Source: Vicugna vicugna (lineage: Eukaryota). Taken from it: a DNA stretch of 64,000 bases. The stretch spans positions 7,765,779 to 7,829,778 of the forward strand of contig MU058198.1 in NCBI GenBank assembly GCA_013265495.1, given 5' to 3'. Under the pieces are notes generated by a model. The model ran no database searches. It saw only the letters and a list, made by a program, of their open reading frames with translations, and was not told the DNA's origin. Positions 3,195 through 63,334 of the stretch are shown piece by piece. How positions within the stretch are numbered: the stretch's first letter is position 1; every line of letters starts with the position of its first letter. The position numbers and the translations under genes are program-made.

Positions 3195-3428
<234 letters not shown>

Positions 3429-3759
3429 TAGTAAGAATGAAAGTCTTAAGGGCTGCCTGCTTAATTTGTTGAGGAAAGAACATTAACTGTTGCCATTTTT
3501 TAAAAGACATCACCTTTTAACCCAAAAAGGCATAATTGACCCAATTGATAAAAAGGGAATGTCTAAAACTTGAATTTGTAGTCTATAACCTTTAGTCTTA
3601 TCTTTTAATATTGAAGTGAGAAACAATTATAGTTGATAGCTTTAATTTAAGTTACAGGTGAGATACGGAAGTATGGTTATAGACCTCGGGTTGTGGAGGT
3701 GGAAGGTGGGTAGTACTATATCCTGTAAGACTGATGTTATCTCATGTTGCTTTCTTCAG

Positions 3760-3889
3760 ACAAATAAGAAAACGGGACAGCCCATGATTAATCTGTACAC
3801 AGACAGGGAAACAGGCAAGCTGAAGGGCGAGGCAACGGTATCATTTGATGACCCACCTTCCGCTAAAGCAGCTATTGACTGGTTTGATG
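3760..3889 (+). CDS. FUS: FUS exon 10 ([46 protein letters not shown])
   Basis: ttcag|ACAAAT...TTTGATG|gtatgt; 130 nt; peptide visible in ORF 3658..4008. Confidence 0.97.
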
Positions 3890-4137
3890 GTATGTGTTGT
3901 GAGGAGGCTGGTGGTGGCGGTGGGGGATCGGGCAACCAGCGTTGGGAAGCAGGCTACATTTTGAGGGTTTCTTTAAGTTGTCTAACACTTTCTACTACTT
4001 TGGTGTAGTCTTATTTTTGTTTGTCTCATGAGAGTATGAACTTAAAGGAGGTCCACTTGAAGGCAGGGTCTTCCCTTGATTGTACCGTGTGCTTTTGGAA
4101 CCACAGGTCTTAATATATACCTCCTTTATTTCTTTAG

Positions 4138-4239
4138 GTAAAGAATTCTCTGGGAATCCCATCAAGGTCTCATTTGCTACTCGACGAGCAGACTTTAATC
4201 GGGGTGGTGGCAATGGTCGTGGAGGCCGAGGGCGAGGAG
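4138..4239 (+). CDS. FUS: FUS exon 11 ([34 protein letters not shown])
   Basis: ttttag|GTAAAG...GGAG|gtgaga; 102 nt. Confidence 0.97.
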
Positions 4240-4332
4240 GTGAGAAGCTATTTCTGCTGCTTGTATGGATAGGTGATGGGGAGAGAGGGGGGAGGCAGGG
4301 TGGGTGTTAAGGGCTTGCGTGGAAAAGATTAG

Positions 4333-4506
<174 letters not shown>

Positions 4507-4825
4507 TGAGTGAAATTTCTTTTTCTCTCAGCCCTCTAACCTGTGTGCTCTTTGATATTATGGTAGAATTTGTTTTCCAGCTAATAAATGTCGAGGCTAT
4601 GCTGATGGGGACAGGCTTACCTAGGTAAGGTAGCTATAGTGGGAGAGGCATTGAACTAGGTTCAGTAATCCACAGTTCTTGTCTGGCTCTGCTTCTGAGA
4701 AACAAGTCTTTTTGCCTTTCTGAGGCCTCAGTTTTCCTTGTGTGTCCTTAAAGTCCCTGCAGTCTTCCTAATTCTAGGTCTTGGCTACTCCCCCGCCCCC
4801 AAACTAATTGTCTTATTTTCTTCAG

Positions 4826-4926
4826 TACGTGTGAGAACATGAACTTCTCTTGGAGGAATGAATGCAACCAGTGTAAGGCCCCTAAACCAGATGGCCCAGG
4901 AGGGGGACCAGGAGGCTCTCACATGG
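4826..4926 (+). CDS. FUS: FUS exon 13 (zinc finger: [21 protein letters not shown])
   Basis: ttcag|TACGTGTGAG...CACATGG|gtaagg; 101 nt. Confidence 0.97.
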
Positions 4927-5017
4927 GTAAGGAAGAGGCAGAGCTGGTAAGAAGAGTTGGGATCAAATAGACCTTAGCAAGGAGGCTAGAGGGAAGGTAG
5001 GGATTTGGGGGGTATGA

Positions 5018-5203
<186 letters not shown>

Positions 5204-5501
5204 TAAGTCAGACTCTAAATTGAAGTGAAAGTAGAGCAACTGAACAGAAGTCATGGGATTGCAAGGTTTTTAGAAGGTGGTTTGGTTTTGAGGGCTAGGT
5301 TGGAAAGCTGAGACTGTAATCACGTTGGGTGGGGGAGGAGGGAAGGAACATTGGGGAACTAATCTGTAGACCCCCATTCACTCGCTATAACGTACAGAGA
5401 TGGGGTTTCTTGGGGTTAGGTAGCAGGGACAGATAGGATTTTGGGGGTGGGGTGGGTGGAGAAGTTGGTGACTCAGACCTAATGGATGCTCTTTCTTGCA
5501 G

Positions 5502-5541
5502 GGGTGAGCACAGACAGGATCGCAGGGAGAGGCCGTATTAG
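5502..5541 (+). CDS. FUS: FUS exon 15 coding part (PY-NLS: RGEHRQDRRERPY*)
   Basis: ttgcag|GGGTGAGCAC...CCGTATTAG; canonical FUS C-terminal PY-NLS; stop TAG at 5539-5541. Confidence 0.97.
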
Positions 5542-5582
5542 CCTGGCTCCTGACGTTATGGAGCAGCTTTTCTTCCTGTACC

Positions 5583-5590
5583 CAGTGTTA
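5583..5590 (+). promoter_or_regulatory. miR-141/200a 8mer seed match (CAGTGTTA) in FUS 3'UTR
   Basis: Exact complement of seed AACACUG followed by A, about 42 nt after the stop. Confidence 0.75.
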
Positions 5591-5678
5591 CCCTCATTGT
5601 TTTGTAACCTTCCAACTCCTGATCACCCACGGGTTTTTTGTGTCGGACTATGTAATTGTAACCATACCTCTGGTTCCC

Positions 5679-12429: not shown

Positions 12430-12940
12430 CTGCGGAACGTGGGGGTGGGGGTGGGGCACGCTCACCCTTGCGCATGGTCTCCTGCAGCTGCTCTGCCACC
12501 TCCTGCATGCCCATGTCACGGAGCACGAGCGCCGTGAGCTCGGCGCCATATGGCTCCAGATAGTAGCTGACCAGCTTGTCGGTGAGGTCCATGGCATCCA
12601 TGGGCAGAAGTGTTCCCCGCGGGATGCGCCCATAGCCGTCGCGCAGCGGCACCGAGAGCAGCTTCATCTTGAACTTCTTGAGCTCGTCGGCGGTCAGGCT
12701 CTCCAGCGCGTCTAGGATGGCATCGCGCGTGCACCCCATGGCTCTGGGATCCCCGCTGCTGCCTCTCTCCCGGGTGTCTGCCGAGCGGGAAGTCTGCTCC
12801 AGGGCGGGACCTGCAACTCCCCGCCTTCTCTGAACTCTCAACTTTGTCCCAGCCCATTGCCCTGGGGTGTACCCCCTTCGTTTCCATCCACTCCTGGCCA
12901 TCGGGGGGCGCCCAGATCACTTTCTTCGGCGGGTCCGGGA
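12430..12940. promoter_or_regulatory. CpG-rich PYCARD promoter/exon 1 region with GC box (gggcggg ~12801) and ETS-like cgggaagt
   Basis: Visibly high CpG density; boundaries estimated by eye. Confidence 0.7.
12466..12739 (-). CDS. PYCARD: PYCARD exon 1 ([45 protein letters not shown]...)
   Basis: Strong Kozak gccATGG, 274 nt, donor gtgagc; classic ASC pyrin domain. Confidence 0.97.
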
Positions 12941-17690: not shown

Positions 17691-20486
17691 ACCAGCATTC
17701 AGGACCTGCCTCTGCAGTGGCCCTGACTGGGGGGTTTCTGGCTTCTATTTGCATTTACCCAGTAGGAGGAGTTCTCACCTCCCACGCACTTATCACCCCA
17801 GCTGTTAGGAAGCTCTCCTTAGGAGAAGCTGAAATCTGCTCCCTCTGAGCTCCAGGCCCGAGGGACCTCACAGATCTCTGTCTTAGGGTCAGCAACACTA
17901 GTCCTCACCCCTTCTCCCCTGGGCATGGTTTCAGGCCCCTTCTCGTCCTCCAACCTGCTGTAGATGATCAGTGTCCCTTCTTGGGTCGGAGGTCAGACCT
18001 GGCTCATCTACAATAAGGGATTGAGTTGACTGTCACCTCCCTGTCCTGGGCACCCACTCCTAGTGACCAAAACCTTCAGCCCTAGCCTGGCAGAGGTGGA
18101 AACTTCAGGTGAGATCTACATTTGGATGCTGACTTTTTGAGCTGAAGTGAAGTGGCTTGTGGTTTCAGAGACCAAATCCAGATGTGCTCTCATCCCCAAC
18201 CCTCTCCTGTTTGGGACAATCGACCTCTGGATTTCTCAGGGTTCCGATAAAAAGCCCTACCTTCCTGAGACTCTTCACATAGCCAGGATAGTTAATTGCT
18301 CTAATCCCAAAGAATAATAAAACTTCTCTTATCTCTTCCTGAGAGGCCCAAGTGATTACAGCCTGAACAAAGTTTCTAGGTTAAGCCCCCGAGGTGCCAG
18401 GAAGCATGGAACAGCTTCCTAAGAGAATCAGCATGCAGTACGGAAAACTTCAAGCATTTAAGAAGGAATGAGCCCCAGAGCTTGGAAACAAGTTGTAGAA
18501 GTAGAGACTTGCTAGGAGCTACCTGGCTGGCTTTTGGGGAGAGTCATTTACCAAAAAGTTGGAGTAAGGAGACCTTTGTCGGGTGGGGTGCGGATCCTAC
18601 AGGATGTCAGGTGGGGCCAGGTCTTGGTGCCAATGACCCAAGCAAGATGTTAGCCTCCAGGACGGAGGGTTCACACAGACGAATACTTCCTGATGCCACT
18701 GCGTGTATGTCCCTAGGGTGAGCCATGGCAATCCACCACCTCCCCAGGAGATCCTCCCAGACCAGCAGGTGATAAATTGCAATTTATATTCACTAATATT
18801 GAGCGTAAGCATCCTGAGAGCCCATTTACATTTTCCCTGTGCCTAAATGCAGCCAGGGACCGTGAAGTGTGAGACAGTGCTCCTCATCTTTAATGCCCAG
18901 CAGAATTTCAAGAAAATGTTAGGAAGACCAACAATTTTTTGCCTTTTCTTGCCAATGTTCAGAAAGCTTTTGCTGCCATGGTTTTTAATTAATGTGTAAA
19001 TAATATATAAAAACCATTATACCCTATTGTGTATCTCTTTTAAAAAAAGATCTCATTATTCATTATTTGTCTATAATCTGTATTTTTGTAACATTTTGTG
19101 TGCTGTATTTCTTTAAATTATTTTAATTAAAATTTTAGGAAAGAAAAAAAATGAGGGGAGGGGGACAGCTGCCTCCTTCTCTTTTATAAGCAGGGAAAAT
19201 AACTTTTCCTCATTTCTCACCTGTGGGATGCAGGCTACTCTTATAGGACAATTGACCCGGCTCTCTTGGAATCATCCTAGTATACGGGGAGGGGGGCAAA
19301 ATATTTACTATTTACTGTGAGGTATTAAATAAGAATCCTGTCTCTGATCCAGAACACCTCGTGTGCACATTTGGAATAAAATTAATAAAAATGATCATAA
19401 GAAACCCAAGAGAGAGGCAAAGAGAGGGTCCAAAGGGCAATTTAAGAGACTGAAACAGAAACAAAAACTCAAACTAAGAGAGGCAGAGAGTGGTGGAGGG
19501 AGAAATGAACAAATCCAGGAAAAGGCTGAGGGATTGTGACTGAGAGGCAGAAGAGAAGCACCAAGTGAGTTTGTGTGTTTACTCATTCATCGAGCATTTA
19601 TTGAGCACCTGCTGTGTGCCACACACTTTATTTGAAGTTGGAGACAAACAGTGAACAAGATTTATGTTCCGGTAGGAGGAGACAGACAAGAAACCAACAA
19701 GTAAAATATCTCATGTGTCAGATAGTGATAAATGTTATGAAAAAAAAAATAAAGCAGGGCAGGGAGATGTGAGATTTAAAATCAGGGAGTTAGGAAAAGC
19801 CTCAGTGAGAAAGTGACACAGGGTAGAAAGATCTGAGGGAGGTGAGGGAGGGAGGCATGCAATACTGGGTCTGAGATGGTGTTCCAGGCAGAGGGAGTGG
19901 GAGTGCAAAGGCCAAGGTTGGAGTGAACAGGGGGAGGGGTGAGTGATGATGGCCTGTGAGGACTTTGGTTTTTATGCTGAATGAGATTTAAATTGAGATG
20001 TAAGGGGTAAGCATGCAGGAAGGCTTGAGGCTTCCAGGGCGATACTGGACTGCAGGCTTTGGATTCAGTTCATTTATTTGTTCAACTTTCCCTCTGTCAT
20101 TCATTTTCCAAGGACTTAGGGAGGCCCACTTTGTCCCAGGGCTTATGCTGAGCACCCGATAGACCAACAGGAAAAAGACTCTCCCCTCAACCCTGCAGGA
20201 AGAAAAGCTTTCAGGGTTGGGGAAGTCCTGTTCTCTTGCAGTTGGAGATAATACTGCCAGTGTGAACTTGGAGAGCCTTAAGCTTGGGGAAAAAGTGGGT
20301 GACAAGCTAGGGAGGGGGCTATGGGCAGGGAAGGAGGGGCTGGAGAATGCGGAACTGGGGGACAAAGGGAAACTCCCTCCAATCATGCTTCTGTCTTTTC
20401 CATGGTATGAGAGGCCCTGTCTCTCTGCTGGATCTGAGCTCTGGCTCCAGGCTGGGCAGGGGAGAGGACAGTGGGATGGGCCAGGA

Positions 20487-21242: not shown

Positions 21243-21632
21243 ATGTCGGCTGCGCCCGGCCTCCTGCACCAGGAGCTGTCCTGTCCGCTGTGCCTGCAGC
21301 TGTTCGACGCGCCTGTGACGGCTGAGTGCGGCCACAGCTTCTGTCGCGCCTGCCTGAACCGCGTGGCAGGGGAGCCCGCGGCGGACGGCACGGTGCTCTG
21401 CCCGAGCTGTCAGGCACCCACGCGGCCGCAGGCGCTCAGCACCAACCAGCAGCTGGCGCGTCTGGTGGAGGGGCTGGCGCAGGTGCCGCAGGGCCACTGC
21501 GAGGAGCACCTAGACCCGCTCAGCATCTACTGCGAGCAGGACCGCGCGCTCGTGTGCGGCGTGTGCGCGTCGCTCGGTTCTCACCGCGGCCACCGCCTGC
21601 TGCCCGCCGCCGAAGCCCATGCACGCCTCAAG
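21243..21632 (+). CDS. TRIM72: TRIM72/MG53 first coding exon (RING + B-box)
   Basis: gcc[41 protein letters not shown]...[32 protein letters not shown]; 390 nt; donor gtgcgg. Confidence 0.97.
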
Positions 21633-23154
21633 GTGCGGGCCCTGGGGTGCCTCCTGCGGGGGCGGGGTTGGATGGGATTTTTGGACGGGTCGCGGCCGGC
21701 CCCATCCGGGGCCTGGCCAATCCGGAGGTTGCTGCCTTGACTTTGCATCCGAGCTTCAGGGACCAGGATGCCTGGAGTTGCAGGGGACGCGGGTGGGGCC
21801 CGGCGGCTAGGGAACTGGGGGCTGATGAGCTGAAGACAGAGACTGGTGGAGACCCGAGACTTGAAGAGGTGCGCAGGGACGGGCCCTGGAGGCATGGGCG
21901 CAGCCGCTGGAGTGTGCCTGGAGATGCGGAGGGCGCAGCTACAGAGCTGAGTCTGCGGATCTGGGGGCCGAGCCGAAGACTGAGTCGGTGCCCGCGGCCC
22001 AGGGGCTCAGGCTCCGCTGCTGGGCGTAGGTCAGGGTAAGGGGCTGGGCTGGCCGAGGCTGCTCAGCTGCTGGGCGGTAGCCCTCGCGCCCCTGGAGCCA
22101 CGGAGCATTGTGTGGGCGTGATGTTACCATATGGGGCCTAACCCGGGAGGCCAGGGCACGCACCTCTGTGCGCAGGCCCAGGTTGGCACCAAGACCCAAG
22201 TTCAGGCTGTTTTTCTAGTTGGAGCCGGAAGTTCCGAACACTTCCAGTGCCCGCACACACCTGTGCGTGCCCCGAGGTTTGCGATCCCCATGGGTGCCCA
22301 CCAGACACCCAGACACTGGCAAATGGAGACGCAGGTACCCAGGCTCGGCCTTGTCATGTGTGGCAAATCACACGCATGTAGCTACGGGAGGGCATGTGTC
22401 TACACAGGCCCAAGGAGATCTGTCATGAAGCATTTATAGGAAGAGTAAACGACAGGTGCAGGGGCGGGAGGAGGAGGAGTCTGGAGGCATGGAGCAGTTC
22501 TCAGTTCCTGCGGTGGAGAAGCTGCCATCATCTTCTCCCAATTGCTGCTGTGCTTCAGGAGTGGGGATGGGGCAGGGAGGGGACTTCTGTGAGTTACCTT
22601 TGCCCACAAACTGCATTGCACTGCACTTCTCATTGGCCCCCAGATTCTTGTCCTTAGGCTGGCATTTGAGGCCCTCAGACTCCCCCCAGGGACCCAGCCT
22701 CACGGTCCCTCTGACTCCAGCCTTGCCAGTCTAGCCGGGTGCTGGCTGGTGGTCTCCTAGCCCAGCGCAGGCACCTCCTCCTCCCAGGAGCCCTGCCTGC
22801 CCAGGCTCACCTCTGCTGATAACCCCAGAACTCCCAACCTTGTCCATTTTTAATCTGCTAAGAGACAGCAGAGTCCGTGAAATGGGATGGGGCACCAAGT
22901 GGGCCAGGAGCCTTGCGGGGGCAGGTGGGTGGGATAGAGTCTGTCAGGGTCTGCATCAGCCCAGCTCTAAGCCTCAGGAAGGGGCTAGCTGGAGGTCTGA
23001 AGCGGGGATCTCTGAAAGGAGACTAAAGGAGGAGGGGGCAGGAAAGCTGGGGCAGGACTGGATGCCAAGGTCCTTGGTGAGGAAGAAGGGCTGGCTCCAG
23101 AGACCTCGTGCCAAGACTTGAGTGGTTGAATGGGATCTGCTGGCACATGGGGCT

Positions 23155-23371
23155 CGCGGCCCCCTGAAGCCGTGCTGTCTCCTCCTGTGTGCCTGTGTCT
23201 TGAGCAAGACTGCCATGAGCTCAGTACCTGCACTGTAGTCCTCGCACCCCACCCCTGCCTGCCCTCCATGGGATGTTCCAAAAGCCTTTGCCTAGCCACA
23301 AACTTTTTGAGCTCATCTGTGGTCTTGGGGTTCTCCCGGGCCTCCAGGATGGCATCGTGCTTGGTCCCCAT
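23155..23371 (-). pseudogene. PYDC1: Degenerate PYD-only gene, PYDC1/POP1-like, nested antisense in TRIM72 intron 2
   Basis: Three frames give MGTKHDAILEARENPKTTDELKKF (from 23371), EDYSAGTELMAVLLK (from 23243) and QEETARLQGAA (23187-23155). These are collinear with human POP1 as recalled (MGTKREAILKVLENLTPEELKKF...EDYAAELVVAVLRD...EEAARLQRAA). Same nested position as human PYDC1. Confidence 0.85.
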
Positions 23372-24357
23372 GGCTCAGCCCTGTCACCCATGAACCTCGG
23401 ATGGCTGAGAGCCACCGGGCCCACCCTGTCCTGCAGCAGATGGGGCTGTCGCCCTGGAGGATGTCTCCTTGGGGAGGAGACTGACCTGGCTTCTGGCCAT
23501 GGGAGCCCTTCGTCCAATTCTGTGGCTCCCACGGAGGCAGGTGAAGGGACTCATCAGCAAACAGCGCTTAGAGGGTCTTCTAGTTTCACTAAGTGGGAGC
23601 AGGGAGGGAGCAGCCAATTTGTCAGAACCACAGGTGATGTGGAGATGACTGTTCCCATTTTGCAGAAGAGGAAACTGAGGTTGGAAGCCATGGAGGCAGG
23701 ACTGGAAACATCTGATTCCAGGGCCGTGCACCTCCCAGCAGAGTGACTTTAGCTGGAGGTATTTGGAACTCCCCTACACCTGCCTTTTGAGAGTCAAACT
23801 GACAGACCTAGGGTAGGAGCTGGCCCAGATATGTTTGGTTTGTCCATGCAGAAGATATTTTTATTAAATTGCCTACCCCCAGAGACTACCGGTGTGCAGG
23901 GAACATTTTGCTAAGGGTCTGCTTTTAGGTATAGGGTGAAACCCAGGAATAGGGGGAGGCTGCATTTTTTCTTTACACATCCTATGCTAACCCCAGAAGC
24001 CTACTGTGTGCCAAGCCCTTACCCCTCTGGTGGAGGGGACCAGGCTGCATTTGTGTTTGTCATCTTCACAAAGACCTGTTCTGGAGGGCTGCTTGCTGAA
24101 GCGATGGAATCAGGGAAGGCAAAGCGAGGGAGGACTTACCTACGTAGACAATGGGAGATGAGGCATTTGAGCCATCAGGATCAGTACTGACAAGGGCTTC
24201 TGACCAGTGAGTGTATCTGGGGAGTGGTAGGATGTCAGCCTGGCTGGAAGAGGAGCAGGCGTGGAGGCTGAGCCCGAGGGAGCAGGTTAATGTGGGAGGT
24301 ATGGGTTAAGGTGGGGGAGGTGGTAGCAAGGTCACTTCTTTATGTCTTGCCCCCCAG

Positions 24358-24453
24358 ACACAGCTCCCACAGCAGAAGCTGCAGCTGCAGGAGGCATGCA
24401 TGAGAAAGGAGAAGAGTGTGGCCGTGCTGGAGCATCAGCTGGCGGAGGTGGAG
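24358..24453 (+). CDS. TRIM72: TRIM72 coding exon 2 (coiled coil, [32 protein letters not shown])
   Basis: cccccag|ACA...GAG|gtgagg; 96 nt. Confidence 0.95.
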
Positions 24454-51722: not shown

Positions 51723-52265
51723 CTCTACTTTGAGCCGTAGCCCAGGAATCAGCAAAATGTGTGTCTGTGGGCAAAAGGCAAGGATTCCACTGTGGGTTTT
51801 TGTACAACTTGAGAATCATAGGTCCCAGATGAACATTTATAATCGATTCTTGACAGGGAACACTAACTTTGAATTCCAGTCAAGGGATATGTTATCTCCC
51901 GCGAAGAATCCATTTGTCTCATCAGTAAATTTATATTACCCCCAAATTGTACTTAATTATTATGCTTCGAATTTCCTTAATGAAAAATTTGTGGAAATGC
52001 ACTTTCTCTTTTGTTATATAAGTACCTGTGTAATATATCCTATTTGCCTCTTTGCCCACAGAACCTAAAATATTTACTATCTGGCCCTTTATAGAAAACT
52101 GTGGCCATCTCTGCTCCAGGCTGTCAGAGCTGGACCTGGGAGGCACTCATCTCCTTGCTGGGTTAGGTGAATCCCAGCAGGAAGATACTTGGGGCAGAAA
52201 GGCAAGTTCTTTCTTAACGATCTCCTTATCTCCTCCTGACCACAGCCTTGTTGTTCTCCTTTCAG

Positions 52266-52371
52266 CCTTGGCCTTAAGTCGTGGGTTCAATCTGGACACT
52301 AAAAACGCAGTGATCTTCCAAAACAATGCAAAGGGCTTCGGGCAGAGTGTGGTCCAGCTTGAAGGATCCCG
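52266..52371 (+). CDS. ITGAM: ITGAM exon 2 (ALALSRG|FNLDTKNAVIFQNNAKGFGQSVVQLEGS)
   Basis: ttcag|CCTTGG...TCCCG|gtaagg; 106 nt; FNLD mature N-terminus. Confidence 0.96.
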
Positions 52372-53767
52372 GTAAGGGCTGCGGGGAGAACCCCCGTCTC
52401 ACAGGCTTTCTTTCCCAGACTTAACATACCTGAAGAAAAAATTCACAATTTCCTTGATTTTTGTTTTTCTTGATTTGTCAACGTTCTAATTTCAAAAGAT
52501 ACAGAAGAATGTGATAGTAAAAAGTTTCCTCTTCATGGTCTCCCCAACTTTTGTCCCCAGCAGAGCCCCTGGTGAACGGTTTCTTGAGTGTTCTTTCACA
52601 GAGAGTCTGCGCTGCACAGACCTCCGCGTTTTCCTAACCCCCATCCTGCACGCAGCTTGTAGCACGTTATCCTCAAACTACAGCCTGCTGCCTGTTTTTG
52701 TAAATACATTTTATTGACAACCGCCCCACCTAACTTTTCATTTATCATTTATGGCAGCTTTGGAACTACAGCAACAGAATGACTACAGCAGAGGCTGAGA
52801 CAGAGAATCTATGGCCTGTAAACCATAAAATATTTACTTTTGCAGAAATAATATTTATGGAAATAATGTTGCCTTTCTAGAAAAAATTTGCTGGCCTCTG
52901 CTCTATACTGTCCTTTGCATTTAAAAAAGTTTAATACAGCTTGGTGATTTTACCAGATAAATGCAGAAAGAGCGTCCTCATTCTTTTTTGTGCTTACATC
53001 ATATTCTGTTATTTGTTGGTACTGTAATTTACATTTGTATTACATTTAAATCTCTTCTTAATAGACATTAGATTGTTTCCAGATTTTTACTATAAGAACA
53101 ATGCTGGCATTTTGTAAGTGTGCAAGTACATTTGGAAGTAAATTCTTAGAACTAGGATGGCTGGATCCAAGGATATATGTGCATACGTAATTTTAATACA
53201 GTTTTCTCGATTAACCCCAGCAGAGGTTGCAACAGTGTACACTCACACTAGTAATTTATGCAAACATCTACTTCCTCACCCGTTTGCCAGCAGGTTGTCA
53301 GTGTTATCAAACTTACAATCTTTGTAAACTGAATAGGTGAGAAATGTTATCTCACTTTAATCTTAAATTGTATTTCTTTTTAAAGAGAAACTTCTTCCCT
53401 TTTCTGTGAACACTGTTTATCATCTGTTGCCCATTTTTCATTTCTTTCTTTTTTTTTCCTTATTGTTTTGTGGGAGCTCTGACTATACTGAGGAAAGTAG
53501 TCTGGGGTATGAGTCGCTAACCTCCCTCTCCACAGTTTCTCTTTTGTCTTTTGACTTGAGTTTAGTTGATCACATACAGAAATTTATTTAAAGTGATCGT
53601 GTGGTTGAATGTATTCATTTTTAAGTGACCTCTGGATATTATGTCATCTTTAGAGAGGCCCTTCCCCCTCCAAGATTAAAAATTTCCCATTTTTGGATTG
53701 TACATGGATTAACTCATTTAATTCTGATAATAACCTTGAAGTGGATACTGTTATTATCCATATTTTA

Positions 53768-53934
53768 ATTAATTAATTAAAAATTGAAGTGTAAGTGATT
53801 TACAATGTTAGTTTCAGGTGTACAGCAAAGTGGTTCAGTTAAATGTAAACATATATACATACATGTATATTTTTCAGTTTATTTTCCATTATGGCTCATT
53901 ACAAAAAAATTGAATATAGTTCCCTCGGCTATGC
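53768..53934 (-). mobile_element. Young 5'-truncated L1 3' end inserted in a MIR, 16-bp perfect TSD
   Basis: tattatccatatttta at 53752-53767 and 53935-53950. Confidence 0.8.
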
Positions 53935-54443
53935 TATTATCCATATTTTAGAGATGAGAAAATTGAAGCATAATAAGGTAATGAACTGACTTGCCCAAGG
54001 TCACACCAAAGTGACAACGGGACTAGATTTTAATCCCAGGCAGCAAAACGCCAAGGCCTGTGTTCCTGTCCACTCTGCAGTACTGCATTCCTGCATGACG
54101 CAGGAGTGGGGAAGCAATTTCAAGTTAGGCGTGTAGACTGTTTGTCTTCATGGTTTGGCCTTCAGGATTTAGAAATTCTTGAATTTAGTGAAATAATCTC
54201 TGGGACCATAAATGCAAATGACTGGATTACAAGAATATTTACAGTAAACAATCGATGGTTAAAAAAAAGTTCCCCTTTTTTCCTTTGTTGAATCTTTCTC
54301 CTATTTCTGGGAGCTGGGGCATCCCTGTGAGGGTGGCACCCCAGCTTTTACTCTGGATGGTGGAACTTCCATGCTCTCCTCCTCTTCTCACAAGTCAGTT
54401 TTCTCTTGTGTCTGTGGTGATCTGTTCCCTCATCTCCCCTCAG

Positions 54444-54547
54444 GCTGGTGGTTGGAGCCCCCCAGGAGATAAAGGCTGCTAACCAAACAGGTGGCCTCTA
54501 CCAGTGTGACTACAGCATGGGCACGTGTGAGCCCATCCTCCTGCAGG
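54444..54547 (+). CDS. ITGAM: ITGAM exon 3 ([34 protein letters not shown])
   Basis: cctcag|G...CAGG|gtgagt; 104 nt; FG-GAP repeat. Confidence 0.96.
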
Positions 54548-54745
54548 GTGAGTCCCTGCCCTTCGTGGGGACCCAAGGCTAAAGTTCCACCTGTGCACAC
54601 ACCTGGACTTTCCAGGCATTGCCTTTGTCCTGGTGGAGGGATCTGTGGTTGGGGGCCCAGGGGCCCAGCTCCTGGCCTCCTATCCAGCTCTTACACAGCC
54701 CCTTGCATCCCTCTGAGGGTGACCATGTATATATCTTTCCCCCAG

Positions 54746-54816
54746 TCCCCCAAGAGGCTGTGAACATGTCCCTAGGCCTGTCTCTGGCATTTGCCACCAA
54801 ACCTTTCCGGCTGCTG
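54746..54816 (+). CDS. ITGAM: ITGAM exon 4 (VPQEAVNMSLGLSLAFATKPFRLL)
   Basis: cccag|TCC...CTG|gtgagt; 71 nt. Confidence 0.96.
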
Positions 54817-54962
54817 GTGAGTTGCCTTGGGTCATGGGAGTGCCCCAAGGGAAGGAGATGGGGGCCCAAGACTGCTGGGCCTGGGGTCTTGGAGGGCGGA
54901 GGTGCCAGGGTGAAAGGATAGGAAGCAGTGACAGCCCCTCTCACCCATTCCCTGACCCCTAG

Positions 54963-55080
54963 GCTTGTGGCCCCACTGTGCACCAAACTTGCAAGGAGAA
55001 CACTTATGTGAATGGCATGTGCTTCCTGTTTGGATCCAACCTACTGCAGCAGCCCCGGAGGTTCCCAGAGAACTTCAGAG
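54963..55080 (+). CDS. ITGAM: ITGAM exon 5 (ACGPTVHQTCKENTYVNGMCFLFGSNLLQQPRRFPENFR)
   Basis: cctag|GCTTGT...AGAG|gtgggt; 118 nt. Confidence 0.96.
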
Positions 55081-55284
55081 GTGGGTTGCCTTTAGCAGAG
55101 AGTATAGACAAGCAGTGTGAGACCAGAGGGCACAGGCAGGACTGGGCTGGAGGCTCGATTTAGAGGTCTTGATGCAGAAGGGTGAGGGAACTGGGTTCCA
55201 GTGGAGAGAGAGTCAATGGAGAGGTTGGAGTGTTTCTGCACTTTGAGAAAAGTTCTGATGTAGCCATTCATCTTTCTGAGACAA

Positions 55285-55342
55285 TGTCTCAACCATTGCC
55301 CTCAACCAATGTCTCAACCATTGTCCTCAATCATTGTCTCAA
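55285..55342. repeat. Short degenerate tandem repeat (~12-13 bp unit, tgtctcaaccat)
   Basis: tgtctcaaccat tgccctcaaccaa tgtctcaaccat tgtcctcaatcat tgtctcaa. Confidence 0.7.
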
Positions 55343-55784
55343 GTGGAACTCAACCTGACCATAGCCTTTGAGGCTCTAGCTGGTATGGCTCCCGTCCACC
55401 TCTCCAACTTCTCTCCCATCCTTTCTACTTGAGTCATTGTGCTCCAGTCACTCTGGGTGCCTTTCTTCTCCAAGAACCACACTAAGCTGTCTCTGCCTCA
55501 GGGCCTTTGCACTTACCATTCCTTTAGCCTGTCAGGCTCTTCCCTCAGATCTTAGCTGACAACCCATTATTGTCATCTCAGCTCAAATGTTACCTCTTCA
55601 AAGAGGCCTTCCCTGAGTGGCTCTTCTAATCATTTCCACCATTGCTCTGTGCCACATTGCCCTACTTTACCATCTTCATATCTATATATCCATACTTTGC
55701 TTGTTTTTCATATGTCCTTTCTTCTGGGATGTAGGCTCCATGATAGCAGGGATATTGCTTCGCTGGTGCACTGCTCCATGCTCT

Positions 55785-56340
55785 TGTATCTATTGCTGCT
55801 TAATAAATTGGCCCTGAACCTAGTAGACAAAACCAACAAGCATTAGTTATCTTACAGTTTCTATGAATCGGGAATCTGGACATGGCCTATTTGGGTGCTT
55901 CTGTCTCATGGTTTCTCATGCGCTTGATGTTAAGTTGTCAAACCAGAGGTGTGGTCTCATCTGAAGGCTTGATTTGGGGGAAGGTCCAGTTCCAAGCTCA
56001 CTTACAAGGTTGTTGGCCTGAGGGCCTCAGCCCTCCCTGGCTGTTGGCTGAAGTCTTTCCTCACTTGCTTAGCCCATGGGCCCCGCCGTAGAGTAGCTCA
56101 CAGCATGGCAGCTGGCTTCCTTCAGAGTGAGTGGACAAGGGAGTGAGAGTAAACACTGAAGACAGAAGTCACAGTCTTTTCATAATCGAATCTCAGAAGT
56201 AAACAGCTCATTACTCCTGCCGTATTTCTTTGAACTGAGCTAAAAAGTCCAGCTCACAATCAAGAGGAAGGGACTGTGCAAGGGTCTTATTACTAGGAGG
56301 CAGGAATCTTGGGGACCATCTTGGTGGCTGCTTGCCACAC
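55785..56340. mobile_element. MaLR (MLT1-like) LTR
   Basis: atctattgctgc...ttatcttacagtttctatgaatcgggaatctgg...cagcatggcagctggcttcc...aatctcagaagt...gggaccatcttgg. Confidence 0.65.
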
Positions 56341-58163
56341 TCTTGTTCCTCAAACATTTATTGATTGAAAAAGAGTGAGTAAATCTTTTCTTCCAGCTGC
56401 TTTCTGACAGTGATTTCTTTAACGGCTTGGCCACCTTTTTGCTTATCTCCAAGTTGGTTCTGGAACCAAAGGCAGATATGTCTTTTTTTGGTATATATAT
56501 TTTTATTAAATTATCGTGTTTACAATGTTGTGTCAATTTCTGGTGTAGATATGTCTTCTTGTCACAGTTTTTTTTTTTAATTTTCTCAAGCTCTACTCCT
56601 TTGTCCTTCACTCTCAATGGAGAACCTTCCTCCTTAAGAGAATAAACCAAGGCTGCCTCTACACTCCTCCCTTCTCCTTGTCCAGACTTCCTCGGTGGCA
56701 TCACTTTCGGCAGTGTCTCAGTGGGTAGAGGAAGACCTGTTTCTGTCTTTCCATGAGTAACTCTTCCATCTGGGCTTTTAAGGCTTTCTCATATCACCAA
56801 CTCCTGAGGCCACCCACGCCTTTAATCACTCATTCTCTGCAGAAGCATAAATTGTGTCCCCCTCCTGTGAATGTAGACATGTTCATGCTACCCATATCTT
56901 AAGAACGATCAACCACCAAAACTGATAGCAATGAAAATAACCTTCCCTCTCTATTCTCCTCTCCGGCTTCTGCCATCTCTGCTTCCCTTCACCACCAACC
57001 TCTTGGAAGAATTCTCTCTTTGTCTCCATTGCCCCCAGGCCATGATTCTTTATCCTCTGACCTCTGGCTTCTGACCACCCATCATATAGACCTTGCACTT
57101 GCAAATGGCATCTGTGACCCTCTAAATGCCAAATCTCTTTTCTGTCCTCACGTTCAGTGACTTTTCCAACGTGACCTGCAGATCACCTCTTCTTTCCCCA
57201 AACAGCTTGACGTCAGACATCTCTCTTCTTCTTCCCTCGCCTCACTTCCTCTCTTCTCTTGCCTCTTCCCCTATTGAGGGCTTCTGCAGAGCTTCAGCTC
57301 CAAGCTGCCTTCCTCTGCTTTCTCTGCCCACCTAAGGGCACTGAGTTACAGCTTCCGTTTCTGCCCACGTGTTCCTCGTGCCTGACTGCAACCCACTCTG
57401 TGGCTTCAGCTCCCACTCCCACATTTCCCTCTTCAGTCCTCTCCCTTGGGCGTTCCAGACTCTTCTTTTTAAAAACATTTTCATTTCTTTAAAAATGGAT
57501 TATACATGCACTTGGCTCAAAATTCAAAAAGCACTAAAGGATAGACTGTAAAAATCTCTCCCTCTTGGGTCCCCCAGCCTCCTGTTTCCTTCTTGGGAGA
57601 CAACGGCCACTGTTACCAGTTTCTCATGGATTCCTCTGGGGGTGCTCCATGGATTTGCTGACACATGCACCCGAATACTTCACTTAGGACCATAAATGGT
57701 AGTGTGCTGCACACACTGTATTGAGATTCTTTTCACTTAGCACATCTTTGAGATTTTCAGAAAATTTCTAGCTAATCTTCTCTGTTTATTTTCCATATAA
57801 ATGTTTGAATCTGCTTATCTATTTTTAAAAAAGCCAATACTTTTTCTGGGTAATTTTATCCTATTTTTTTCACTGATAATAAAGTCAAGTTGACCTTTCT
57901 TTCTTGTAGTATACAGTTTCACTAATTTTAAGATATGCTTATATCTTCCCCCCACAGAAAAAAAGTACATCTAAAATTTTTTTTAAAAACTGCCTCCAAA
58001 ATCTATAAAGTAAATTAGTGGTAGCCTAGGGATGGGGTTGGGGGGCAGGGAAAAAAAAACGAAACAAAAAAGGTATGCTTAGATTTGTGTAAACACCAAC
58101 ACGAACAAGATACAAAAGAATTCTTTTACCCCCTAGAAAAATCCTTCATGCTGTCCCTTTCTA

Positions 58164-58399
58164 CACTGGACTTTTAAACAATGGCTTGCATGAACCATGT
58201 GGGTCCACCTATATACGGATTTTTTTTTCTTTACTAAATTCATGCTACAGTACTAGGAGATCTGAAGTTGGTTGAATCCACGGATGCAAAATTGTGGATA
58301 CAGAACCACGGATATGGAGGCCAGACTGTAAATTTATAGGCTTTTCAGCTGCACAGAGGATGGGGGCGTCTAACCCTTGTGTTGTTCAAGGGTCAACTG
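58164..58399. mobile_element. Tigger-family (TcMar) MITE
   Basis: Right TIR ttgttcaagggtcaactg; degenerate left TIR cactggacttttaaacaa after TA; internal gggtccacctatatacggattttt. Confidence 0.7.
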
Positions 58400-59135
58400 G
58401 ATTTAGAAAGGGACTAATTATAAAGAGGTGACAGAATCTAAAGGAACTAAAAGGGACAGCCCAGGGACCCAGGATGAACAGCAGCGGAGCTGTTGCCACG
58501 CTAGGCTGAGGAGCCAGGGAGAGAAAGAAGTTCCCAGAATCTGGAAGGAGAGTGTGTCATGGGAAGCCCGTGTCATTGAGAGGAGCACTGACCTGTTAAG
58601 GAGCACGGCTGGCCCAAAGCAGCCTAGCTGGGCGGGCGCCGAGGGGAAAGCACTCGGATCTCACTCTCCTCCCTCCCTCCAGTCTCCTGCTGAGGCTCCC
58701 AGTTAGGCAAACACAGCTAGAAGCCAGACGGTGAAGGAGACCTGCTGACGTGGTCCATGTGGGCTGAGCTCCAGAGAGGGGGAAAGTAGAAAGTGGATTT
58801 GGGGCTGGGAGCAGAGGAGGGGAGGACATCCAGCATACCTTTATACGTGCTATTCCTTTCTTCCCCTGTAATTTATTTCTCCCTTTGTATTTCTGGCAAA
58901 TTCTCTCTCATGTTTCACGAGGTAGCTGTGATAAAACCGCTTTCTGCGACAGCCTTGAGCAGAATGAACTCAGTTTCTCCATCCCGCTTTGTCCCATGGT
59001 TTTACTTAACTAGGAGCATGGCTTGCGTCTTGTTTTCCTTTCATTCTCGTTGCTCACCAGAGGGCTGATGTGCAAAAAACGAACCCCGCGTCTCTAGTAC
59101 TTAATCAATTTCATGTTCTTTTCCCTTTTCCCCAG

Positions 59136-59266
59136 GGTGCCCTCAGCAGGACAGTGACATCGCCTTTTTGATTGATGGCTCTGGTAGTATCAACCCAAGA
59201 GACTTTCAGCGGATGAAGGACTTTGTCTCAACTGTGATGAGTCAATTCCAAAAGTCCAAAACCTTG
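59136..59266 (+). CDS. ITGAM: ITGAM exon 6 (I-domain start; MIDAS DGSGS at 59174-59188)
   Basis: cccag|GGTGC...ACCTTG|gtgagg; 131 nt; [43 protein letters not shown]. Confidence 0.97.
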
Positions 59267-59708
59267 GTGAGGGCCAATGGGTAGGTTAGGGAACAGCCTG
59301 TACAAGGCTGGCAAATATATGGCAACCAGGCTGCCACATGTTCCCTTCCTGTTGGCAGGTGATGCCAAATTGCCAATTGATCATCATTTTCTTTCATGAT
59401 TTGCTTTCCTGCTCTGTCTGGATGCAGACTCAGCATTCTTCCAGCCCTCTGTCAAGCAGGCAGACTCACTGATAGGGGTTGGCGTGGGAGATGAAAACCA
59501 CATGTCATCTCTGGCTGAGTTCTAGTGCTGAGAAGTGGGAGCTGATAGTCAGTCTCTGTCCTGATGAGGCAGAAGGTTTGGGGGCAGTGTGGAATTTGGA
59601 GGAATTTGGAGGCTGGAGTGTTTCAAGGTTTATGGAGGGCTTGCCGGGGGCTGTTTAAGGGGGAGGAGGGGCACCTTCTCCAGTGTAATACGAGGTGCCT
59701 GTTCCCAG

Positions 59709-59854
59709 TTCTCTTTGATGCAGTATTCTGAAGAGTTCCAGATTCACTTCACCTTCAACGATTTCAAGAGAAACCCTTACCCAGAACTGCTGGTGAGACC
59801 AATAATACAGCTGCTTGGGAGGACACACACTGCCACAGGAATCCTCAAAGTGGT
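59709..59854 (+). CDS. ITGAM: ITGAM exon 7 ([16 protein letters not shown]...[12 protein letters not shown])
   Basis: cccag|TTC...GTGGT|gtaagc; 146 nt. Confidence 0.96.
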
Positions 59855-60311
59855 GTAAGCTCCTCCCGCTTTGCTTAGGGTGGAAGGAGGAGGTTTTGTT
59901 TTGAGCTGAGCTCTGCAGGATGAGGCGAGCTGTTCAGACAGGGCTGGGGTGGAGGAGGGATGGTGTCTGGCGTGTTCATGAAATGCAAGTTGTGAGGAAA
60001 GGTGGGAGTAAAGCGGGAAAGTGAGGGAAAGGCTGGAGGGAGGCTAGAAAGATCAGCTGAGGCCAGGTCACCAAGGCAACTGAAAAGCCAGCGGATCCAT
60101 TGAAGATTTTAAGCAGTGGGGTGACGTCACCACATCTTGTTTTGGAAGGTTCATTTTGTTCTGTGTGTGTGTGTGGAGGCAAGAGTGGGGACTGGAACAA
60201 AAGTGCAGGAAGAAGAGCTAAACAGCCATTGTGTCAAATCAGGAGAGGTTTAATGAGGGCACAATTAAACTTATTAATTTTTTTAAATTTAAAAGGAATA
60301 ATACTCTGTTC

Positions 60312-60345
60312 AAACAAACAAACAAACAAACAAACAAACAAACAA
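60312..60345. repeat. (CAAA)n microsatellite
   Basis: About 8 tandem caaa units. Confidence 0.9.
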
Positions 60346-60564
60346 CTAAGGCCAAAGAATCTGAAAGCAATGAGGCCTTCCCCTCTCTCCATGCTCTCCT
60401 GTTCTCCTGCTGCCCTTCCAGGTCCTGGCGCAGCTGCGTCTCAGTGGGAGCCCAGGCCCCAAACTAGAGAGGGCCCAGTTGCATCTGTAACTGCTGATGT
60501 TCCTTCTCTAGCATCAAGTGCATCTCTGCTCGAATTTAGCTTTTCCCTCTTCTTCCCTGGACAG

Positions 60565-60718
60565 AAGAGAACTGTTTCACAGCAGCAGAGGAGCCAGAGA
60601 GAATGCCCTTAAGATCCTAGTTGTCATCACAGATGGAGAAAAGTTTGGTGATCCTTTGGAGTACAAGGATGTCATCCCTGAAGCAGATAGACGTGGAGTC
60701 ATTCGCTATGTCATTGGG
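60565..60718 (+). CDS. ITGAM: ITGAM exon 8 ([51 protein letters not shown])
   Basis: gacag|AAG...ATTGGG|gtagga; 154 nt; TDGE MIDAS loop. Confidence 0.96.
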
Positions 60719-61744
60719 GTAGGAAATGTGGCTCCCTGGCCTGATGTTTCCGTGGAGGGTTTCTCCTTGGATAGACCCTCCTTTCAGTTTGCAAACATCA
60801 GTCACATCAGAGTGGCACAAGGGCCATAACTGCTAGCGCATATGCCCCTGTCTCCGTGAACTATTGTCATAATGACCCTATGTAACCAACTATCCCTAAA
60901 TTCAGTGGTTTACAACGGTAAGTGAATCTGTGGGTCAACTAGGCAGTTTTTCTGGTCCCAGCTGGACTCATGCATCTGTAATCAGCAGCAGCTTGGTTGG
61001 CAGCCCCGCTGATCTTGGCTGGGCTCTCTCCATTTCCGAGGGTCACCAGCCACGTCAGTCTGCTGGGCTGGAACAACAACCTGGGGAACTTGGCTCTTCT
61101 GCTCCCTGTGTCTCATCCTCCAGTGGGCTAGCCTGGCCGTGTCCTCGAGGTGAAGGCAGAGGAACAAAAAGAGCAAGTGGAAATACCACAAGCAGTTTTT
61201 CAAGCCTCTGTTTGTAACGCATGTGATAACATACATGGGCTAAAGCAGTACACGTGACTGAGCTCAGAGATGATGAGCGGGAATGGAAACCCTGCCAGGA
61301 GGAGGAGGGCACAGCACAGCTTTGGGGAAGGCGCTTGGATACAGGGATGCGTAGAGGGTTGGGAACATCAGTATAATCAAACTACTGCTGTATCTTGTAT
61401 GACATAGATACAGGAATCATCAAGGGGGCCTGGTCTGGCCAGTAGCAAACACCTTCATACAAAGGAAGAATCTCCCCTCCTTCTGAGAGAGGTCAGTCCC
61501 ACACCGGGAGGCCTGGCACAGCAAATGGACCAAAGGCTGGATTTCAGCTCCAATTTCTCCCTTGACACAATGTAGAGTGTACAACCTGCCCTACCATACC
61601 TGGCAGCCCTGTCCCGGGGGCTTTCTGGTGCATTCCTTCCTTGGACAAACATTGTTTTGGTTCTTTTCCTGTAGAATTGTCTTTGCTGGAGGAGAGTGGT
61701 TCCCCTAGAAAGTGTCTGATTCGGCCTCTGTTTGTTGGTAACAG

Positions 61745-61895
61745 GTGGGTGATGCCTTTAACAGTAAGAAATCTCGCAAAGAGCTTAATACCATCGCATC
61801 CCAGCCGTCTCGTGATCACGTATTCCAGGTGGATAACTTTGAAGCTCTGAAGACCATTCAGAACCAGCTTCAGGAAAAGATCTTTGCGATTGAGG
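61745..61895 (+). CDS. ITGAM: ITGAM exon 9 ([50 protein letters not shown])
   Basis: aacag|GTG...GAGG|gtgagc; 151 nt. Confidence 0.97.
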
Positions 61896-62373
61896 GTGAG
61901 CTAAGGTTTTGTAGTTCCCGGAGCAGCTCTAAAGGCAGCCCCTCACCCCCCAACATATATTCCCCTCTAGAAACTAGAACCTCCTTGCCCTTGTTATCCT
62001 GACCCTCGGCATCAACTCTCTTCTCGCTCCAGTTCCCAGCAACTCTGGTCTCACTTGCTCAATTCCTTTGAAATGGAAGGATCTAGACTTTTACCTCTAA
62101 TTTTCCAAGTCTTGGCTGTAAGCTGAGGATTGGAGGGTAGGGAAACCAAATCCCACACAGTGTTTTCCCCCAAATTTGGATGTGTTGGCAACATTTGTCT
62201 GTTTGGTTCAATGCTGTATCCCCAGTGCCTAGAATAATGCCTGGTACATAGAGAGGGCTCAATAAATGCCTGTTGAATAAAAGAATTTAAAACAGGGGGA
62301 AGTTCATATACAGTCTGGATTTGTGCTTCTCTTGAAAATTTGGAAGATTAGACACCTTGAGGACCACATTCTT

Positions 62374-62707
62374 TTTGAAAAAATTATTATTTAAAAAAAT
62401 TTTTAATTGAAGTACAGTTAATTGCAATGTGTCAGTTTCTGGTGTACAGCACAATGTCCCAGTCATGCAAATACATACACATATTCATTTTCGTATTTTT
62501 TCATTAAAGGTTATTACAAGATATTGAACATAGTTCCCTGTGCTATACAGAAGGAACTTAAAAAAATCTATTTTTATATATAATGGCCAATATTTGTAAA
62601 TCTCAAACTCCCAAATTTATCCCTTCCCATCCCCTTTCCCTGGTAACAATAAGATTTGTTTATTATGTCTGTGGGTCTGTTTCTGTTTTGTAGATGAGTT
62701 CATAGTG
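62374..62707 (-). mobile_element. Young 5'-truncated L1 3' end with 15-bp perfect TSD
   Basis: gaggaccacattctt at 62359-62373 and 62708-62722. Confidence 0.82.
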
Positions 62708-62777
62708 GAGGACCACATTCTTACCTGGCGAAAATTAGCTGAGCCAAATAGCCACCATCCCTTTAAAAGGGGTATAG

Positions 62778-62948
62778 GCTAGATAGGTAACAAGGATATA
62801 CTGTCCAGCACAGGGAATTACAGCCATTATACTAGTAACAACCTGTAATGGAGTATAATCTGCAAAAATTACTGAATCACTATGCTGTGCACCTGAAACT
62901 AACCTAATATTGTAAATTAACTATACATCAATGAAGAAAAAAAGAAAG
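62778..62948 (+). mobile_element. L1 3' end fragment with A-rich tail
   Basis: aacaaggatatactgtccagcacagggaat...tgaatcactatgctgtgcacctgaaactaac...aaaaaaagaaa. Confidence 0.7.
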
Positions 62949-63107
62949 AGATGCATAACAGAGGAAATGTGAAAAAAAAAACAAAAACGTGGGGGCCTAT
63001 GGCTCCCATCTGAGTCTCCCATAGTCTGGCCGCCATAGTATTTGAGTTTCTTATTCCTGTTCTAGGCTCTTCTACCTTCTGTAATGTAGAACGTTCTTCC
63101 CTCACAG

Positions 63108-63181
63108 GTACGCAGTCAGGAAGTACCAGCTCCTTTGAGTATGAGATGTCTCAGGAAGGCTTCAGTGCTGTCATCACCTCT
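63108..63181 (+). CDS. ITGAM: ITGAM exon 10 (GTQSGSTSSFEYEMSQEGFSAVITS); gene continues beyond window
   Basis: cacag|GTACG...ACCTCT|gtaagt; 74 nt. Confidence 0.95.
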
Positions 63182-63334
63182 GTAAGTGGTCTTTTGTTTA
63201 ATTGGTGTTGGGGGGTGCTAGATGAGGGGGAAGAAGAGGTGCAAGGATCTGGGGTCTCTTCTCTGACGGGTACTTGCTGGGAGGCACCTCTTTGATGGAC
63301 AGTGGTGGCCCCTTCTCTCTTCCTTGTCAATCCT

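What the first reader, a model, noticed from the sequence alone, without database searches (positions are those of the whole stretch)
23155..23371. Fossil PYD-only inflammasome regulator (PYDC1/POP1) nested in TRIM72 in a non-primate mammal
Seen: on the minus strand of TRIM72 intron 2, three different frames give MGTKHDAILEARENPKTTDELKKF, EDYSAGTELMAVLLK and QEETARLQGAA. They are in PYD order and resemble the PYCARD exon 1 about 10.6 kb away ([23 protein letters not shown]...[14 protein letters not shown]...QEVAEQLQ). The segments for KMKL.. and ..DLTDKLV are deleted or scrambled, and the stop after ..RLQxAA is gone. Known: human PYDC1 sits at this same nested position, and POPs are commonly described as primate-type, absent from mouse and rat. 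Inference: the ASC-PYD duplication predates the primate/laurasiatherian split and was lost independently in this lineage, so this animal lacks a POP1 brake on ASC.
Basis: partly seen in the sequence, partly recalled or inferred. Interest (0 to 1): 0.78.

Follow-up and report, generated by a model that had tools for sequence, protein, structure and literature searches.

The report
Dead inflammation-brake gene in camelid genome
This is the broken remnant of PYDC1 (POP1/ASC2), a gene whose intact form dampens inflammation in bats and humans, lying inside TRIM72 as it does in humans, in what is likely a camel-family genome; its ancient origin and its loss in cattle and whales are already published, so the remnant itself is ordinary.

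Summary
They are broken by net -20, -38 and -1 nt deletions and +3 and +6 nt insertions. The relic carries PYDC1-type residues and groups with placental PYDC1 (100/99). Grouping with camelid ASC is rejected (AU p 0.036 and 0.012), and its 3' flank matches pangolin PYDC1 read-through. It is therefore the orthologous PYDC1 pseudogene, not a fresh PYCARD copy. The window's ASC matches camelid ASC, and no intact PYDC1 was found in the assembly. The evolutionary story is published: Lachner 2017 shows armadillo PYDC1 and infers loss in the cattle-cetacean ancestor, and reviews describe bat ASC2. Intact copies turned up in xenarthrans, sirenians, shrews, mole, bats, pangolins, squirrels, beaver, treeshrew and colugo. 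Whether the camelid loss is the same event as in cattle and whales is untested. One side result is more interesting. The four residues called a bat ASC2 'gain of function' occur together in 8 of 26 non-bat, non-simian placentals and in only 5 of 14 bats, and three survive in this relic. They look ancestral, which would make the catarrhine (human) form the derived one.

The parts
23300..23371 (-). PYDC1 relic fragment 1: ATG in GAGCCATGG context, PYD positions 1-23, with a 3-nt insertion near position 15
23287..23299 (-). 13 nt standing in for codons 24-34 (net -20 nt, frameshift; KxKL lost)
23269..23286 (-).
23247..23268 (-). 22 nt standing in for codons 41-60 (net -38 nt, frameshift; DLTDKL lost)
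23202..23246 (-). Fragment 3, CEDY..GTELMAVLL (positions 61-73) with a 6-nt insertion after Y64
23155..23201 (-). 1-nt deletion at codon 74, then fragment 4, DTGTQEETARLQGAA (positions 75-89); no stop follows
22959..23154 (-). 3' flank orthologous to the read-through tails of pangolin-cluster PYDC1 (P0060) and unnamed P0075
   Evidence: E 5e-8 and 1.5e-9
20099..20235 (-). Stretch matching the predicted downstream exon of pangolin PYDC1 isoform X1 (P0059 tail), a synteny marker beyond TRIM72's first coding exon
   Evidence: E 5.7e-7
21243..21632 (+). TRIM72 first coding exon (RING and B-box), upstream boundary of the host intron
24358..24453 (+). TRIM72 next coding exon (96 nt), downstream boundary of the host intron
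12467..12739 (-). PYCARD (ASC) exon 1, intact PYD; the parent paralogue

Best explanation
The stretch is the frameshifted, partly deleted remnant of PYDC1 (POP1/ASC2) at its antisense position inside TRIM72, in what is likely a camelid, and it likely makes no working protein. Shown: fragments, lesions, PYDC1-type residues, tree position, 3' flank orthology with pangolin PYDC1, and no intact copy found in the assembly. From the literature: intact PYDC1 is a PYD-only decoy that binds the ASC pyrin domain and disturbs ASC speck assembly (PMC7555848, PMC13702347). Inferred: the gene arose by local duplication of PYCARD exon 1 before placental mammals diversified, and it died tens of millions of years ago, most simply once on the cetartiodactyl stem. 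Since then it has decayed neutrally by CpG loss and indels, so this animal would lack the ASC2 brake.
For: A frameshift-aware profile alignment scores 217.9 against PYDC1 (38 of 43 chosen rows kept) and 132.3 against ASC (47 of 51 kept); 30 shuffles gave mean 33, max 51. At 20 positions where the two consensuses differ, the relic residue is commoner in PYDC1 at 17, absent from both at 3, and commoner in ASC at none. In a tree of 34 rows the relic lies on the PYDC1 side, 100/99; relic plus camelid ASC is rejected, p-AU 0.036. On 44 indel-free columns support is 98/98 and p-AU 0.012, with identity 34/44 to manatee PYDC1 against 25/44 to own ASC. PYDC1 read-through tails map to the relic's flank, ASC read-through tails to PYCARD intron 1. 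PYCARD flanks and relic flanks share nothing (best E 0.45). CpG O/E is 0.32 in the relic, 0.19 upstream and 0.88 in PYCARD exon 1. The 128-aa frame from the relic ATG has no PYRIN match. Human PYDC1 lies antisense in TRIM72 intron 2. Searching the genome with bat PYDC1 finds PYCARD (67%) and two distant PYDs (39%, 37%), 3 matches of 4 candidates; the relic DNA occurs once. ASC matches Vicugna/Camelus ASC.
Against: The full-length relic row was aligned with a PYDC1 profile, which biases it; the 44-column control reduces but does not remove this. Holding the relic with all ASC rows (that is, at the base of PYDC1) is not rejected, p-AU 0.34. No human or other mammalian DNA of the locus could be aligned; flank orthology rests on translated tails from pangolins, rhino (weak, E 0.08) and one unnamed ORF. 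The genome search scores few candidates and the assembly has 12,405 contigs, so a missed intact copy is not excluded. Timing and sharing with cattle and whales are untested. Transcription is untested.
Confidence: 0.93

Rival explanations
1. An independent duplication of this lineage's own PYCARD exon 1 landed in TRIM72 and then decayed.
For: Local proximity (10.6 kb) and 72-78% DNA identity to own PYCARD exon 1.
Against: Relic plus camelid ASC is rejected; K4, F36, N38, C61, D63 and E81 are PYDC1-type; no flank similarity to PYCARD; the flank matches pangolin PYDC1.
Confidence: 0.02
2. The relic still works, either as a short POP4-like peptide from the intact ATG (23 PYD residues, then out of frame, 128 aa) or as a muscle enhancer for TRIM72, a role proposed for the human PYDC1 region.
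For: The ATG context is intact and the frame is open for 128 codons. Human POP4 acts with only 45 residues. The human region overlaps enhancer chromatin in muscle.
Against: No PYRIN match. Among 1.84 billion representatives only 3 hits were found, long proteins with 6-8 matched stretches and none over the PYD part. Open frames of 70 aa or more are common here, 145 in 28 kb. CpG is depleted. Even fragment 1 carries L12R, L15P and an insertion.
Confidence: 0.05
3. On timing only: the camelid loss is a separate event from the cattle/whale loss.
For: PYDC1 was lost repeatedly in mammals (PMC5727156; PMC11898699). Camelids branch first among cetartiodactyls (recalled), and 'camel', 'alpaca' and 'pig' do not occur in the main text of PMC5727156. 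Unnamed P0075, a near-complete PYD with a frameshifted end, is the relic's unstarred sister (97/74), and its organism is unknown.
Against: No cetartiodactyl-named PYDC1 appears among the 77 proteins or the 120 listed (of 345). Five indels and heavy CpG decay suggest an old loss. One loss is more parsimonious.
Confidence: 0.35

Closest known systems
PYDC1 / POP1 / ASC2 (human NP_690865, PDB 2HM2 and 4QOB; Pteropus alecto ASC2)
   Same: Antisense inside the TRIM72 intron after the first coding exon, near PYCARD; single PYD without CARD; PYDC1-type residues and tree position.
   Different: Three frameshifts, two large deletions removing about a third of the domain, CpG island decayed; no intact product.
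PYDC1 loss in cattle and cetaceans (Lachner et al. 2017, PMC5727156; passages and supplement passages read)
   Same: Same gene, same order (Cetartiodactyla), same conclusion of placental origin and later loss.
   Different: That paper's main text names no camelid or pig and does not use the word pseudogene; in the passages seen it gives no lesion sequence for PYDC1.
PYCARD / ASC exon 1
   Same: Parent paralogue; 72-78% DNA identity in the surviving blocks.
   Different: ASC is intact, has a CARD and keeps its CpGs; the relic is not derived from the camelid copy.

Membership tests
PYDC1 (POP1/ASC2) orthologue | Antisense in TRIM72 intron 2, next to PYCARD | tested here: met
   for the window; for the human position. 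TRIM72's non-coding exon 1 was not located.
PYDC1 (POP1/ASC2) orthologue | Groups with placental PYDC1, not ASC | tested here: met
   (100/99, 98/98; AU 0.036, 0.012). A basal position is not rejected (0.34).
PYDC1 (POP1/ASC2) orthologue | Flanks orthologous to other PYDC1 loci | tested here: met
   by translated tails of pangolin-cluster proteins and P0075; human DNA not compared.
PYDC1 (POP1/ASC2) orthologue | PYD without a linked CARD | tested here: inconclusive
   The relic's open frame has no CARD match and its flank matches PYDC1 tails; the intron was not searched with a CARD query.
Functional PYD-only protein | Intact ~89-aa open frame with a full PYD | tested here: not met
   frameshifts, deletions, no PYRIN match.
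Functional PYD-only protein | Binds ASC PYD and blocks speck formation | not testable with these tools
   Needs an assay; no intact product is predicted.
Unitary pseudogene | Disabled at the orthologous locus with no functional copy elsewhere in the genome | tested here: met
   limited by assembly completeness and 4 candidates scored.
Unitary pseudogene | Not expressed as protein | not tested
   Read-laying gave no data.
Cetartiodactyl-wide PYDC1 loss | Lesions shared with pig, cattle, hippo and whales | not testable with these tools
   No such DNA obtained.

The most novel reading that the evidence does not exclude
The relic is a fossil witness that the potent 'bat-type' ASC2 is the ancestral boreoeutherian state. 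It keeps E10, C61 and G77, and has W37 one CpG step from R37. All four residues occur together in 8 of 26 named non-bat, non-simian placentals (rhino, squirrel, beaver, blind mole rat, colugo, tarsier, two lemurs) and in only 5 of 14 bats. All 8 catarrhines carry K10, E37 and a changed position 61, and apes add R77. The reported 'gain of function in bats' would then be a stepwise loss of potency in the catarrhine/ape line, and camelids discarded a strong inflammasome brake.
Probability: 0.55. Interest if true: 0.55.

Novelty: new member of a known kind. Interest (0 to 1): 0.3.

Why it matters
The relic alone adds camelids to a published loss and gives exact lesions that can date it: one cetartiodactyl loss or several. 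It also corrects the still-repeated claim that POP1 is primate-specific. The residue survey matters more. If bat-type ASC2 is ancestral, then bat tolerance depends on keeping and expressing the gene rather than on new residues, human POP1 is the weakened form, and tarsier, squirrel or rhino PYDC1 become direct test proteins. Camelids carry MERS coronavirus with mild disease (recalled, not from a call); lacking ASC2, they would show that this brake is not required for such tolerance.

Tried and rejected
Laying contigs of four DNA runs on the relic laid nothing (the tool says this can be false). A second laying, of four RNA-type runs with small shares, returned no result. So lesion sharing between species and transcription remain open, and the six runs with shares of 0.07-0.14 are no evidence. 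Two metagenome scans for mammalian TRIM72 or PYDC1 contigs confirmed no locus (598 and 597 raw matches); the first query wrongly began with intron-derived residues, spoiling two of its six patterns. A search of 1.84 billion representatives with the relic's 128-aa frame found no orthologous read-through. A first tree of 87 rows timed out and was rerun with 34 rows chosen by taxon. Ahn et al. 2023 (Cell) is not held, so its text and supplements, which may already discuss residue ancestry or mammal-wide loss, were not seen. Earlier scan findings held nothing on this locus; two shark PYD notes are unrelated. PMC11258412 mentions ASC2 only in its references.

Full report
Observation. The three peptides are in the sequence as described, on the minus strand at 23371, 23243 and 23187, with the PYCARD ATG at 12739. 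Against own PYCARD exon 1 the stretch gives 59/76 nt (E 5e-13) and 44/61 nt (E 3e-4). Its local score of 140 compares with a maximum of 76 in 500 shuffles, and it is the only non-PYCARD signal among 796 window tiles. Profile searches add a fourth fragment, GFWNIP, and a Cys before EDY.

Anatomy. A frameshift-aware alignment and base counts give +3 nt near codon 15, net -20 nt over codons 24-34, net -38 nt over codons 41-60, +6 nt after Y64 and -1 nt at codon 74. That makes 267 - 50 = 217 nt, the observed span 23155-23371. The frame from the ATG runs 128 aa and has no PYRIN match. CpG O/E is 0.32 in the relic and 0.19 in the 500 nt upstream, against 0.88 and 0.38 for PYCARD. The relic lies antisense in the intron 21633-24357 after TRIM72's RING/B-box exon. 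Human PYDC1 lies antisense in TRIM72 intron 2 (PMC10885033, passages). FUS-like exons upstream and integrin-alpha exons downstream are visible; those names are recalled.

Identity. The relic scores 217.9 against a PYDC1 profile and 132.3 against an ASC profile. These were built from 38 of 43 and 47 of 51 chosen rows, and rows not aligning without gaps were dropped. At 20 discriminating positions 17 favour PYDC1, 3 fit neither and none favours ASC; two of the 17 lie in uncertain gap regions. A 34-row tree puts it with 15 PYDC1 rows at 100/99. Joining it to camelid ASC is rejected (p-AU 0.036), while placing it at the base of PYDC1 is not (0.34). On 44 indel-free columns support is 98/98 (bootstrap not fully settled) and p-AU 0.012. 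Read-through tails of pangolin-cluster PYDC1 and of unnamed P0075 map to 23162-22959 (E 5e-8, 1.5e-9). A predicted pangolin downstream exon maps to 20235-20099 (E 5.7e-7), and ASC read-through tails map to PYCARD intron 1 instead. PYCARD and relic flanks share nothing.

Organism and copy number. The ASC CARD is 100% identical over 93% of the query to Vicugna ASC, whose cluster also holds Camelus, and the PYD rows are identical. The genome is therefore most likely a camelid, a cetartiodactyl. Bat PYDC1 finds only PYCARD and two distant PYDs in G000 (3 matches of 4 candidates), and the relic DNA occurs once. Leaving out the possible source run, 13 of 24 listed runs, from six studies and six organism codes, hold 0.80-0.94 of 105 sampled words of 22800-23800. 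About 25% of word starts overlap the relic, so those organisms probably share most of the decayed sequence.

Distribution and prior knowledge. Named PYDC1 proteins came from sloth, armadillo, tamandua, manatee, dugong, mole, shrews, bats, pangolins, rhino (a hypothetical model with an altered end), squirrels, beaver, Nannospalax, treeshrew, colugos and primates. None was named from cetartiodactyls, carnivores, horses, lagomorphs, murids or marsupials among the 77 rows and the 120 of 345 listed. That is weak absence, since many rows are unnamed. PMC5727156 (passages, and supplement passages) shows armadillo PYDC1, infers inheritance from the placental ancestor and loss in a cattle-cetacean ancestor, and says mouse, 'like cetartiodactyls', lacks it. 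PMC8192740 (one passage) repeats the cetacean loss. Reviews state that ASC2 is in 13 of 13 bats examined (PMC13702347, passages) and that most mammals lost it (PMC11898699, passages); PMC11876839 and PMC11376593 were read in passages. PMC7555848 (passages) carries the older primate-only claim and the decoy mechanism. A supplement row of PMC13754592 places PYDC1 in missense decile 10 across 462 mammals, so mammal-wide orthologue tables for it exist, though I saw no camelid status. Searches returned no paper describing a camelid relic; only listings were seen for most of these hits.

Mechanism. Intact PYDC1 binds the ASC pyrin domain and disturbs speck assembly (literature). The relic lacks about a third of the domain and has no frame that restores it (shown), so it likely makes no brake (inferred). 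The simplest history is duplication of PYCARD exon 1 before the placental radiation, then one old loss on the cetartiodactyl stem. Separate camelid and cattle/whale losses remain possible (about 0.35). A residual role as a short peptide or as a TRIM72 enhancer is not excluded but has no support here.

Side result. PMC11898699 reports E10, R37, C61 and G77 as the residues behind a gain of function of bat ASC2. Among 51 named PYDC1 proteins, all four occur in 5 of 14 bats, 8 of 26 non-bat non-simian placentals, 0 of 3 New World monkeys and 0 of 8 catarrhines. At least three occur in 22 of those 26. All 8 catarrhines have K10 and E37, the call counts Y at 61 for all 8 (the printed Nomascus row is ambiguous there), and the 4 apes add R77. 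Position 61 alternates between C and R (all 5 atlantogenatans have R), so C61 is the least certain ancestral call. The relic reads E, W (TGG), C, G. This points to ancestral potency and a catarrhine decline, but it is a sequence inference, no activity was measured, and Ahn et al. 2023 could not be read. The one search on these residues found two reviews, and the passages read from them do not say this.

Verdict. The feature is real and correctly named, and its main evolutionary message is already published. It is a new member of a known loss. Interest 0.3; the residue-polarity reading would deserve about 0.55 if confirmed.

Noticed in passing
proteins P0249, P0277, P0239, P0259: The four Old World monkey PYDC1 models have Ile where other PYDC1 have the start Met, which may mean a lost start codon and a further PYDC1 loss in cercopithecoids.
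   Followed up: no
proteins P0056, P0059, P0060, P0198-P0201, P0075; window 23155-22959: Rhino and pangolin PYDC1 models, unnamed P0075 and the relic all lack the stop after codon 89 that bats, primates and atlantogenatans have; the 3' end may have changed early in this part of Laurasiatheria.
   Followed up: partly
P0075 (unnamed Logan ORF, 151 aa): A near-complete PYDC1 with a frameshifted end, sharing H5 with the relic and placed as its unstarred sister (97/74); it looks like a younger PYDC1 pseudogene of an unknown mammal.
   Followed up: partly
L002:1501-1749 and L003 (G000 C808, C1192): Two other PYD exons at 39% and 37% identity to bat PYDC1, likely NLRP or pyrin genes; L002 has a PYRIN match.
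   Followed up: partly
window 3200-5600 (+) and 52200-63300 (+): Exons resembling the 3' half of FUS and an integrin alpha with an I-domain (ITGAM-like), matching the recalled human order FUS-PYCARD-TRIM72-ITGAM.
   Followed up: partly
P0230: Blind mole rat (a muroid, recalled) keeps PYDC1 with all four bat-type residues, so the mouse/rat loss postdates the spalacid split.
   Followed up: no
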